A stretch of DNA of 64,000 nt, taken from Escherichia coli. GTDB taxonomy: Bacteria; Pseudomonadota; Gammaproteobacteria; Enterobacterales; Enterobacteriaceae. The translations under genes were made by a program, and so were the position numbers. Of this stretch, positions 54,119 through 55,192 are shown piece after piece. The stretch lies in assembly GCF_024502345.1 (NCBI RefSeq), contig NZ_JALDNN010000003.1. The stretch is one strand, 5' to 3'. Below the pieces are notes generated by a model that saw nothing but the letters and a program-made list of their open reading frames with translations, made no database searches and was not told the DNA's origin. The number at the start of each line of letters is the position of its first letter. Position 1 is the stretch's first letter.

Positions 54119-55192
54119 ATGCGAAAAAGCTATACCTATGGGATTCCTTTCGGACTCCATCGCGATACCGGACGGTTTCTGGACATCACGGAAGTCAGCA
54201 GAGGAAGCGCATGCAACTGCATCTGTCCTGGGTGTCGTACGGATTTGATAGCCAGACAGGGAGAGGTCAAACTCTGGCACTATAGCCACAGTACCGATCT
54301 CCTCGGTGATTGTGATGGCCTGATGGAGGCGATTCGGGGAAAAATTATTGAAGTTATTCAGGAAAAACAACTTCTAGGATTCCCGCATCTTCTGGCCGGT
54401 TACGATGGAGGCACGGTCCCACTTGATGAAGTCAGCGGCAGCGGAAGCATGTTCGGCGCAACGGCAGATCTGTTTGTGAAGGTGAACGATCTCTGCATAG
54501 CTGTGTTTCTGGACATTGACCGCAGTGTGGCCGGAAAACTGACGTTCGACCATCTCCATGCCTCGGAGATGGTAGCTGCATTGCGTATTGATCTGCCGGA
54601 TATAGAATACGAAATCAGTCAGGTTCAGCTTGGTAGACGAGATGGTACCTACAGTGAATGTATCGAGAAAATCATCATTGATGCGACGGAGTCACGCGAA
54701 TGGTTGTATCACCCCATGATGCAGGAACTGGGGACCGAGCCCCTGAAGGTATATGAGGGCCGCGAGCCAGCGGAAGCAGGACCACTTCTACAACGCCTTT
54801 CCGACAGCACCCTGAAGCTGCCGGACAACTTACCCCAGAGCATGAATGTGCTGATAAGAATGCAGCAGGCCACCATTGTGTGTTTGTGTCGGCTCACCGT
54901 CAGAGCTTCAGATATCGCCCAGACCGACGAATTCCCGCTGTTTATGCGTTACTTCCGGCTGCATTGCCTCGACACCAGTGAGCATGTGAATTACGAGAAA
55001 TTGCTTAACTGGCAGGACATGATTACAAAATCAAAGGAAGGGCAGTTACTAACGGTGGAGGAAAGGGATTATCTCCAGGAAATCGTCCGTATTGGTCTCT
55101 ATAACCACCGGCTTAAAAGTGTCTGCCTGACGGCCTGCGAAGACAATAGGGTGGGAGAATCTGAAGGACCAAAAAATTACTCATTGCTCTGA
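54119..55192 (+). CDS. Hypothetical protein with CoiA-like N-terminal Cys motif
   Basis: CNCICPGCRTDLIARQGEVKLWHYSHS resembles the CPxC...K..HFAH motif of the competence protein CoiA family; weak. Confidence 0.3.
   Translation: MRKSYTYGIPFGLHRDTGRFLDITEVSRGSACNCICPGCRTDLIARQGEVKLWHYSHSTDLLGDCDGLMEAIRGKIIEVIQEKQLLGFPHLLAGYDGGTVPLDEVSGSGSMFGATADLFVKVNDLCIAVFLDIDRSVAGKLTFDHLHASEMVAALRIDLPDIEYEISQVQLGRRDGTYSECIEKIIIDATESREWLYHPMMQELGTEPLKVYEGREPAEAGPLLQRLSDSTLKLPDNLPQSMNVLIRMQQATIVCLCRLTVRASDIAQTDEFPLFMRYFRLHCLDTSEHVNYEKLLNWQDMITKSKEGQLLTVEERDYLQEIVRIGLYNHRLKSVCLTACEDNRVGESEGPKNYSLL

What the first reader, a model, noticed from the sequence alone, without database searches (positions are those of the whole stretch)
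54119..55192. CoiA-like Cys-motif protein of unknown role
The N-terminal CPGC...K..HYSH segment resembles the competence protein CoiA signature. CoiA-like proteins are poorly characterised and nuclease-related, so its presence on a plasmid is unexplained.
Basis: inference. Interest (0 to 1): 0.3.

Follow-up and report, generated by a model that had tools for sequence, protein, structure and literature searches.

The report
CoiA-type zinc-ribbon, nuclease-fold plasmid protein
This is a real, well-conserved backbone gene of IncHI resistance plasmids that shares only its small zinc-binding head with the competence protein CoiA; the rest is a diverged nuclease-like fold and a tail found only in this plasmid group, and its role is still unknown.

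Summary
The 357-aa ORF at 54119..55192 (+) is real and carries the reported motif (C36-P-G-C39 … K51 … H54-Y-S-H57). Pfam CoiA_N matches aa 33-59 just above its cutoff, and a profile comparison with genuine streptococcal CoiA gives 96% probability, but only over the zinc ribbon. The CoiA nuclease domain (PF06054) is not detected by HMM or profile-profile comparison.

A confident model (pLDDT 94.9) shows a restriction-endonuclease-like fold at aa 67-215. The canonical β3 glutamate is Phe, and no acidic core residue is invariant among 12 IncHI-type orthologs, whereas all zinc ligands are.

Residues 1-215 belong to a large uncharacterised family (5,792 cluster representatives) whose sampled members sit among restriction, defence, toxin-antitoxin or mobile-element genes. 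The helical tail (aa 216-357) is confined to IncHI-type plasmids.

The gene lies downstream of hha in a conserved Tus–recombinase–Hha–gene module across IncHI1A, IncHI1B, IncHI2 and Klebsiella plasmids (N-domain found in 2,788 PLSDB records). It is under purifying selection (dN/dS about 0.11). A published R27 deletion covering it did not reduce plasmid stability.

Verdict: not CoiA. It is a diverged zinc-ribbon, nuclease-fold, probable DNA-binding accessory protein. Public databases already label it "CoiA-like N-terminal domain-containing". Interest is modest.

The parts
54119..55192 (+). Complete CDS (357 aa plus stop). It is the ortholog of R27 WP_001232452 and is identical to WP_024176561.
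   Evidence: ORF list and sequence. RefSeq CDS at the same coordinates in NZ_LR890350. dN/dS 0.11.
54119..54316 (+). N-terminal beta strands plus CoiA-type zinc ribbon (aa 1-66). Ligand candidates are C36, C39, H54 and H57, plus family-specific C32, C34 and C65. The Pfam CoiA_N match covers aa 33-59 (nt 54215-54295).
   Evidence: Pfam 29.1 bits against cutoff 26.3. hhalign to genuine CoiA gives probability 96.2%. The Cys and His residues are 94-100% conserved in 133 sequences and invariant in 12 IncHI-type orthologs.
54317..54763 (+). Restriction-endonuclease-like (PD-(D/E)XK-type) fold core, aa 67-215. Elements are helix 67-83, strand 85-88 then P89, an inserted hairpin 98-111, strand 114-122 (A116-D117), strand 125-132 (F130-L-D132-I-D134-R135), strand 152-158, two helices, and strand 193-197 followed by W195-x-Y-H198-P199.
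54764..55189 (+). Clade-specific C-terminal helical domain (aa 216-357) with the conserved IAQTDEFPLFxRYFRxHCL motif. No known family matches it.
52809..53021 (+). hha (Hha/YmoA family), the conserved upstream same-strand neighbour. This is context, not shown to be functionally linked.
   Evidence: Pfam HHA E = 1.8e-19. Hha followed by this gene is conserved in IncHI1A, IncHI1B, IncHI2, the Klebsiella IncHI1B/FIB plasmid (86 bp gap) and a metagenomic IncHI-like plasmid.
51413..52603 (-). Tyrosine recombinase, divergent from hha. It is part of the conserved Tus-recombinase-Hha-gene backbone module (context).
   Evidence: Pfam Phage_integrase. Synteny.

Best explanation
The gene encodes a three-part accessory protein of the IncHI plasmid backbone. 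(1) The N-terminus is a zinc ribbon homologous to the C2H2 finger at the N-terminus of competence protein CoiA. (2) The middle is a restriction-endonuclease-like fold belonging to a very large, uncharacterised family that is distinct from the CoiA nuclease family. (3) The C-terminus is a helical domain found only in IncHI-type plasmids.

Shown here: the domain architecture, the homology limited to the zinc ribbon, the fold class, the distribution, the synteny and the purifying selection.

Inferred: the protein binds DNA through the zinc ribbon and the nuclease-derived core. In this plasmid clade the canonical catalytic site is eroded: the beta3 Glu is Phe130, the Lys/Gln position is Asp132, and Asp117 is replaced by Pro in two orthologs. 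The protein therefore most likely acts mainly as a DNA-binding or recognition module, with at best a re-wired non-canonical cleavage activity, and the C-terminal domain provides a plasmid-specific interaction.

The biological role is most likely a dispensable conflict-type or regulatory function (defence, exclusion, anti-defence or Hha-linked), not competence and not core plasmid maintenance.

For: Large separate family: 5,792 representatives at E <= 1e-3, nearly all matching only aa 9-215. None carries PF06054.

Eroded site: family position 130 is Y 42%, E 28%, F 20%, and the query has F130. No acidic core residue is invariant in 12 IncHI-type orthologs, while all zinc ligands and W195/H198/P199 are.

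Constraint: dN/dS 0.11.

Backbone status: 1,420 plasmids carry the gene and 2,788 carry the N-domain, with conserved Tus-recombinase-Hha-gene synteny.

Dispensable: R27 deletion 15 (150,566-156,499) removes the ortholog (154,290-155,363), and only deletion 16 lowered stability (PMC4853401).

Conflict-type context of the wider family: 9 of 9 sampled loci lie among R-M, McrBC, TIR, Cap4, DruA, Abi, SMODS/SLATT, toxin-antitoxin, integrase or T4SS genes.
Against: No direct evidence of DNA binding or of catalytic inactivity. The core IncHI1/IncHI2 clade conserves several acidic residues: E/D78 on helix 1 (where the rest of the family has Q), D117, D132, D134, E150, D158 and E163. These could form a migrated active site, as is known in other PD-(D/E)XK enzymes. 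I could not inspect model coordinates to test their geometry.

Confidence: 0.5

Rival explanations
1. It is an active stand-alone nuclease used in genetic conflict, for example restriction-like defence against phages or competing plasmids, or exclusion. It would use a re-wired active site built from E78, D117, D132 and D134, with R135 or R193 as the basic residue.
For: The fold is restriction-endonuclease-like. Subfamily A of the same family keeps a canonical PD...ExV.H motif similar to CoiA's PD-ExQ (PMC1189080). Acidic residues are conserved within the core IncHI1/IncHI2 clade. The wider family sits in R-M, defence or toxin-antitoxin islands in 9 of 9 sampled loci. The IncHI region also carries HNH, RNase_T and PDDEXK genes.
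Against: The beta3 glutamate is Phe or Tyr throughout the clade. D117 is Pro in P0011 and P0016. In the Klebsiella ortholog, D132 is Asn, E78 is Val and R135 is Ser. No cognate methyltransferase or immunity gene lies next to it. No PADLOC model matches. No phage homologs were found.
Confidence: 0.25
2. It is a plasmid-maintenance accessory factor that works with the neighbouring Tus, tyrosine recombinase and Rep functions. One possibility is processing or binding of replication-termination or dimer-resolution intermediates, loosely analogous to CoiA's D-loop resolution.
For: Position is strictly conserved in the Tus-recombinase-Hha-gene-(Rep) module across IncHI1A, IncHI1B, IncHI2, Klebsiella IncHI1B/FIB and a metagenomic IncHI-like plasmid. 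A 40%-identical homolog lies near KfrA, ParA/ParG and StbA on another Salmonella plasmid. CoiA itself is a structure-specific endonuclease (preprint 10.1101/2024.02.06.579203).
Against: R27 deletion 15, which removes the ortholog, was viable and was not among the deletions that reduced stability (PMC4853401). Synteny may simply reflect a conserved backbone. The catalytic motif is eroded.
Confidence: 0.1
3. It is a nuclease-dead DNA-binding partner or target of the Hha/H-NS silencing circuit of IncHI plasmids, co-expressed with hha.
For: hha is the conserved same-strand upstream neighbour, only 86 bp away in Klebsiella plasmids and 360 bp away in IncHI2. The active site is eroded while the zinc ribbon is invariant.
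Against: In IncHI1A a 213-aa ORF separates the two genes, and in R27 RepE plus IS1 do, so co-transcription is not obligatory. No terminator or promoter evidence exceeds chance. No literature was found.
Confidence: 0.1
4. It is a genuine CoiA ortholog acting in natural competence as a transformation D-loop resolvase.
For: CoiA_N scores above its Pfam threshold. The overall order of zinc ribbon, then nuclease fold, then C-terminal extension is the same as in CoiA. Some databases name family members 'competence protein CoiA family protein'.
Against: No PF06054 hit in the query or in any relative. Nuclease-region hhalign gives probability below 1%. The catalytic Glu is absent. CoiA is restricted to Bacillota and acts with RadA in the competence regulon. 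This gene is on enterobacterial conjugative plasmids.
Confidence: 0.02

Closest known systems
Competence protein CoiA (Streptococcus pneumoniae CoiA / Bacillus YjbF; Pfam PF25164 + PF06054)
   Different: The nuclease cores show no detectable sequence or profile relationship. CoiA's catalytic D95/E105/Q107 (PD-ExQ) corresponds here to D117/F130/D132. An extra hairpin (aa 98-111) lies between beta1 and beta2. This family has extra Cys residues C32 and C34 that CoiA lacks. The C-terminal domains are unrelated. This gene is on enterobacterial conjugative plasmids rather than in a Bacillota competence regulon.
The uncharacterised 'CoiA_N-only' family, labelled in UniRef as 'Competence protein CoiA-like N-terminal domain-containing protein'. 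Weak Pfam hits to DUF7828 and DUF7830 overlap the same ribbon.
   Same: The query's aa 9-215 align end to end with thousands of these proteins (E down to 1e-39 for members at 20-30% identity). G29, C34, C36, C39, H57, C65 and W195 are 100% conserved.
   Different: Subfamily A keeps PD...ExV.H, subfamily B has VD...Y[FL]TH.GR, and the IncHI clade has AD...FLDxDR. Most members have other C-termini, often a second CxxC...CxxC ribbon (Zn_ribbon_Top1 or DNA_ligase_ZBD hits). Only the IncHI-type clade has this helical tail.
PD-(D/E)XK / restriction-endonuclease-like fold nucleases (e.g. 3ijm, TT1808/1wdj, Hjc, VRR-NUC, Vsr, Cas4, NucS, HincII)
   Same: The core alpha-beta-beta-beta-alpha-beta topology is shared. 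The conserved Asp (D117, 98% in the family) is at the start of beta2, preceded by P, V or A.
Druantia DruB (PADLOC PDLC00005)
   Same: Four subfamily-A relatives give weak hits (E 6e-4 to 7e-3, 13-16 bits) to the first 55-85 or so positions of the DruB profile, over the zinc ribbon.
   Different: The query itself gives no PADLOC hit. The similarity is confined to the ribbon. DruB is 552 aa and part of a multigene system.

Membership tests
CoiA (competence protein, Pfam PF25164 + PF06054) | N-terminal C2H2 zinc ribbon (CoiA_N, PF25164) | tested here: met
   29.1 bits against gathering cutoff 26.3, aa 33-59. hhalign to genuine CoiA gives probability 96.2%, E = 2.2e-09.
CoiA (competence protein, Pfam PF25164 + PF06054) | CoiA nuclease core (PF06054) with the PD-ExQ active site (D95, E105, Q107 in S. 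pneumoniae) | tested here: not met
   No PF06054 hit at E <= 10 in the query and none in 53 relatives or 79 profile hits. Region-restricted hhalign gives probability below 1%. Phe130 occupies the beta3 Glu position. Caveat: the CoiA alignment used was shallow (Neff about 2).
CoiA (competence protein, Pfam PF25164 + PF06054) | CoiA-type C-terminal region | tested here: not met
   No Pfam match beyond aa 59 apart from a chance-level FAM193_C hit. The C-terminal domain is found only in IncHI-type plasmids.
CoiA (competence protein, Pfam PF25164 + PF06054) | Bacillota chromosomal gene of the competence regulon acting with RadA (10.1101/2024.02.06.579203) | tested here: not met
   All close homologs are on enterobacterial conjugative IncHI plasmids. 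For CoiA's distribution.
CoiA (competence protein, Pfam PF25164 + PF06054) | Structure-specific endonuclease / D-loop resolvase activity | not testable with these tools
   This requires biochemistry.
PD-(D/E)XK (restriction-endonuclease-like) fold superfamily | Core alpha-beta-beta-beta-alpha-beta fold | tested here: met
PD-(D/E)XK (restriction-endonuclease-like) fold superfamily | Catalytic D ... (D/E)xK (or ExQ) residues on beta2 and beta3 | tested here: not met
   D117 is present, but position 130 is Phe and position 132 is Asp. D117 is Pro in two orthologs. No acidic core residue is invariant in 12 IncHI-type orthologs. A migrated site (E78/D132/D134) cannot be excluded, because model coordinates could not be inspected.
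Uncharacterised CoiA_N + nuclease-fold family (no Pfam model for the core) | Contiguous match over the ribbon plus core (aa 9-215), with invariant G29, C34, C36, C39, H57, C65 and W195 | tested here: met
   5,792 representatives at E <= 1e-3 and 3,235 at E <= 1e-10, aligned over aa 9-215. Column conservation. The profile was seeded from the query clade, so the query's own membership holds by construction; the informative result is the depth of the distant hits.
Known anti-phage defence systems (PADLOC-DB v2.0.0) | Match to any defence-system protein model | tested here: not met
   No hit for the query at E <= 10. Four distant relatives give only weak ribbon-level DruB hits.

The most novel reading that the evidence does not exclude
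The roughly 5,800-cluster 'CoiA_N ribbon plus restriction-endonuclease-like core' family may be an undescribed, widespread single-gene conflict module of defence islands and mobile elements. The IncHI plasmids would have domesticated a catalytically re-wired or dead version, fused to a private helical domain and kept next to hha, for a plasmid-specific role such as anti-defence, exclusion or silencing-linked DNA recognition. That role would affect the spread of IncHI resistance plasmids.
Probability: 0.15. Interest if true: 0.6.

Novelty: new variant of a known kind. Interest (0 to 1): 0.3.

Why it matters
IncHI1 and IncHI2 plasmids carry much of the multidrug resistance in Salmonella Typhi and, according to PMC4853401, about two thirds of R27 ORFs have no known function. 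This gene is one of those ORFs. It is present in at least 1,420 sequenced plasmids (2,788 counting the Klebsiella IncHI1B/FIB orthologs), keeps a fixed place beside hha, and is under purifying selection.

Showing that it is not a competence gene corrects a misleading automated label ('competence protein CoiA family protein'). Showing that it belongs to a very large uncharacterised zinc-ribbon, nuclease-fold family that frequents defence-type islands gives a concrete and cheap experimental target.

Nothing here is mechanistically surprising, and a published deletion suggests the gene is dispensable under laboratory conditions, so the immediate significance is modest.

Tried and rejected

2. The afdb50 fold library was unavailable, so no structural comparison to AlphaFold models of genuine CoiA was possible.

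3. NCBIfam, PADLOC and PHROGs gave nothing useful for the query. Sequence searches of solved structures gave nothing, with either the single sequence or the profile.

4. No phage homologs of the N-domain were found by tblastn.

5. I tested whether the upstream 218-aa ORF is related to the DUF6933 protein that precedes the P0016 homolog. It is not, so there is no conserved two-gene unit.

6. I tested whether the extra Cys residues (C32, C34, C65) co-vary with H198 as a possible second metal site. They do not.

7. I considered a DNA-mimic reading because the protein is acidic (net charge -16). Two orthologs are near neutral, so the property is not conserved.

8. Promoter and terminator scans around the gene did not exceed the shuffle expectation.

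9. Literature searches for CoiA with IncHI, 'CoiA-like' with defence, the WP accessions, and the Pfam names found nothing relevant.

10. Genuine CoiA sequences were obtained using my imperfect recollection of S. pneumoniae CoiA as bait. Only retrieved database proteins carrying PF06054 were used afterwards.

Full report
**Observation.** The window has an ATG-initiated ORF of 357 aa at 54119..55192 on the + strand. RefSeq annotates the same CDS as a hypothetical protein in identical plasmids. K ... HYSH) is there. Pfam's CoiA_N model (PF25164) matches aa 33-59 at E = 7.1e-07, 29.1 bits against a gathering cutoff of 26.3. Nothing else in Pfam matches at E <= 10 except a chance-level hit. NCBIfam, PADLOC and PHROGs give nothing useful.

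**What the window is.** The region is 100% identical to IncHI1A plasmids of E. coli and 98.5% identical to R27 and other IncHI1 plasmids. In R27 the ortholog is WP_001232452 at 154,290-155,363.

The gene alone is found in 1,420 PLSDB plasmids:
- 229 records at >= 95% identity (IncHI1);
- 63 records at 80-90% (IncHI1B-type, e.g. CP085739);
- 1,128 records at about 70% (IncHI2, e.g. pAPEC-O1-R).

A tblastn with aa 1-215 finds 2,788 plasmids. These add about 1,300 Klebsiella IncHI1B/IncFIB plasmids at about 38% identity, whose protein is 36% identical to the query over its full length.

Synteny is conserved in all of these: Tus, two hypotheticals, a tyrosine recombinase on the opposite strand, hha, then this gene on the same strand as hha, often followed or preceded by a Rep gene. 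The hha-to-gene gap is 86 bp in Klebsiella and 360 bp in IncHI2. In IncHI1A a 213-aa ORF intervenes, and in R27 RepE plus IS1 do.

Nei-Gojobori dN/dS between the IncHI1A and IncHI1B orthologs is 0.11 (dN 0.047, dS 0.42). The gene is therefore functional and constrained.

**Is it CoiA?** According to a recent preprint (10.1101/2024.02.06.579203) and Kosinski et al. 2005 (PMC1189080), CoiA has these features:
- an N-terminal C2H2 zinc finger;
- a PD-(D/E)XK core (Pfam PF06054) with a PD-ExQ site (D95 and E105 in S. pneumoniae);
- a C-terminal extension of unknown function;
- restriction to Bacillota, where it resolves the transformation D-loop together with RadA.

I retrieved genuine streptococcal CoiA proteins carrying PF06054 and PF25164, using a recalled sequence only as bait, and aligned them. 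The alignment shows IAD95V and ALE105VQ107CS as published. Profile-profile comparison of the query's family (133 sequences) with this alignment gives probability 96.2%, E = 2.2e-09, but only for query aa 11-70 against CoiA aa 2-59. The query's own clade gives 81% over the same stretch.

When the regions after the ribbon are compared alone, probability is below 1% in local, low-mact and global modes. This holds for the whole family, for the subfamily that keeps a canonical glutamate, and for the query clade. The CoiA alignment is shallow (Neff about 2), which limits sensitivity. None of 53 relatives scanned individually and none of 79 profile hits with precomputed Pfam domains carries PF06054.

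The shared element is therefore the zinc ribbon module, not the enzyme.

After the ribbon the model shows:
- helix 67-83;
- strand 85-88;
- an inserted hairpin at 98-111;
- the strand pair 114-122 and 125-132;
- strand 152-158;
- two helices;
- strand 193-197.

**The family.** An exhaustive profile search of 1.84 billion cluster representatives finds 5,792 hits at E <= 1e-3 and 3,235 at E <= 1e-10. Only about four match full length; the rest match aa 9-215. All 53 scanned members carry CoiA_N. The DUF7828 and DUF7830 hits overlap the same ribbon. Many members have a second CxxC...CxxC ribbon at the C-terminus.

Conservation across 133 sequences:
- 100%: G29, C34, C36, C39, H57, C65, W195;
- 90-99%: C32, H54, P89, D117, H198, P199;
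- position 193 is Lys or Arg in 94%;
- the beta3 position that pairs with D117 across the hairpin (position 130) is Tyr 42%, Glu 28%, Phe 20%.

The family splits by this site:
- subfamily A has PD...[IV]E[IV]xVxH (canonical, CoiA-like);
- subfamily B has VD...Y[FL]TH.GR;
- the IncHI clade has AD...F130-L-D132-x-D134-R135, with Glu or Asp at position 78 on helix 1 where the others have Gln.

Within the clade, P0011 and P0016 replace D117 with Pro together with L131 to Pro. The Klebsiella ortholog has Val78, Asn132 and Ser135. Across 12 IncHI-type full-length orthologs the invariant residues are the seven Cys/His, W195, Y197, H198, P199 and a few structural positions. No acidic residue of the core is invariant.

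This pattern argues that the ribbon is the indispensable element and that the canonical nuclease site has been eroded or re-wired. I could not inspect coordinates, so I cannot decide between those two.

**C-terminal domain.** Residues 216-357 are helical and match no Pfam or PDB sequence. By tblastn they occur in 1,418 plasmids, essentially the same set as the whole gene, always at one place per record. The domain is a private addition of the IncHI-type clade.

**Function.** Direct experimental information is limited to Tassinari et al. 2016 (PMC4853401). Their R27 deletion 15 spans 150,566-156,499 (ORFs R0168-R0178) and so removes the ortholog. The derivative was obtained, and only deletion 16 (incC) reduced stability. 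The gene is therefore dispensable for R27 replication and stable inheritance in E. coli MG1655 in rich medium, which weakens a core-maintenance role.

Genomic contexts of nine distant family members all contain restriction, defence, toxin-antitoxin or mobile-element genes within 7 kb:
- P0203: McrBC, Fic, HsdR, NACHT.
- P0021: Cap4 nuclease, TIR, DruA, IS66, integrase.
- P0233: Abi_2, AbiEii, AcrVA2-like, T4SS.
- P0196: PIN-TPR-GreABC and a Gp49/HTH pair.
- P0029: methyltransferase, RhuM, ResIII/RE_endonuc, an SMC/AAA_23 ATPase ending 25 bp upstream, HipAB, integrase.
- P0239: HNH, methyltransferase, integrase.
- P0197: AAA_16, UvrD, Fic.
- P0219: integrase, Type I R-M with embedded SMODS/SLATT.
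- P0229: AAA_15/23 ATPase, PemK/MazE, SNF2/NOV_C, VapC.

This sample has no background control. A 40%-identical full-length homolog lies on another Salmonella plasmid near KfrA, ParA/ParG, StbA and a relaxase. PADLOC does not recognise the family beyond weak ribbon-level hits to DruB in four relatives. No phage homologs were found.

**Conclusion.** The protein is not a CoiA family member. It is a diverged member of a large, uncharacterised zinc-ribbon plus restriction-endonuclease-like-fold family, carrying a clade-specific helical tail, and it is fixed in the IncHI plasmid backbone next to hha.

I judge it most likely a DNA-binding accessory protein with an eroded or re-wired nuclease site, serving a dispensable conflict-type or regulatory role (confidence about 0.5). 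The rivals are:
- an active conflict nuclease (0.25);
- a maintenance accessory (0.1);
- an Hha-linked DNA binder (0.1);
- true CoiA (0.02).

Public databases already name this exact sequence 'Competence protein CoiA-like N-terminal domain-containing protein', and some name it 'competence protein CoiA family protein'. The CoiA resemblance is therefore not new, and the second label is misleading.

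Noticed in passing
window 58528-64000 (runs off the end): A Tn7-like transposition module (TnsA, a Mu-transposase-C-domain TnsB, an ATP-binding TnsC, TnsD and TnsE) starts about 3.3 kb downstream of the gene. 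In the identical plasmid NZ_LR890350 it is followed by an Hsp20/ClpK heat-resistance locus.
   Followed up: partly
window 44808-49956: An Mla-like lipid-transport cluster (ABC permease, ATPase, MlaD-family protein, auxiliary lipoprotein) plus an L-serine ammonia-lyase gene. It is bracketed by IS26 and IS1 copies, with rpoH and IS5 further upstream in the identical plasmid. This is unusual plasmid cargo.
   Followed up: no
window 53183-53839 (+): A 218-aa ORF lies between hha and the target (RefSeq aa). It has a hydrophobic, signal-peptide-like N-terminus and no Pfam match. It is present in IncHI1A and IncHI1B but is replaced by RepE (FIA) plus IS1 in R27 and is absent in IncHI2. It is not related to the DUF6933 protein upstream of the P0016 homolog.
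   Followed up: partly
window 55449-55955 (-) and 56005-56262 (-): Two convergent ORFs of 168 aa and 85 aa lie downstream of the target. Both are conserved in IncHI1 plasmids and have no Pfam match.
   Followed up: partly
window 54212-54313 (aa 32-65): The family has seven conserved potential metal ligands (C32, C34, C36, C39, H54, H57, C65). Genuine CoiA has only the equivalents of C36, C39, H54, H57 and C65. C32 and C34 could contribute to a second metal site. No co-variation with H198 was seen, and the geometry could not be checked.
   Followed up: partly
P0011 and P0016 (alignment columns for aa 117 and 131): There is a coupled substitution within the clade: 'AD117...F-L131-D' becomes 'AP117...F-P131-D' in two independent orthologs. 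It looks as if the PD dipeptide moved from beta2 to beta3.
   Followed up: no
L014:4295-7954: In a metagenomic island, the family member P0029 starts 25 bp after an 893-aa SMC_N/AAA_23 ATPase. It lies downstream of a methyltransferase, RhuM and a ResIII/RE_endonuc protein. This may be a multi-gene system that includes the ribbon-nuclease protein.
   Followed up: no
P0203, P0021, P0219, P0197 (aa ~8-84): These proteins give weak PADLOC hits (E 6e-4 to 7e-3) to the N-terminus of Druantia DruB over the zinc ribbon. This suggests DruB begins with a CoiA_N-like ribbon.
   Followed up: no
L016:6661-8148: In the Klebsiella IncHI1B/IncFIB plasmid NZ_LR890666, a group II intron reverse transcriptase/maturase is inserted between the tyrosine recombinase and hha.
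   Followed up: no
R27 ORF R0175 (PMC4853401 Table S2): The original R27 annotation lists R0175 as 24% identical over 45 residues to a ~328-aa 'transcription factor [Lactococcus lactis]'. From my own recollection that may be L. lactis CoiA, so the ribbon similarity may have been seen in 2000. I could not verify which of R0175 or R0176 is this gene.
   Followed up: partly
cluster of the exact protein: The exact 357-aa sequence is recorded on 937 contigs, the longest 5.1 Mb. This suggests occasional chromosomal integration of IncHI DNA, or assembly joins.
   Followed up: no
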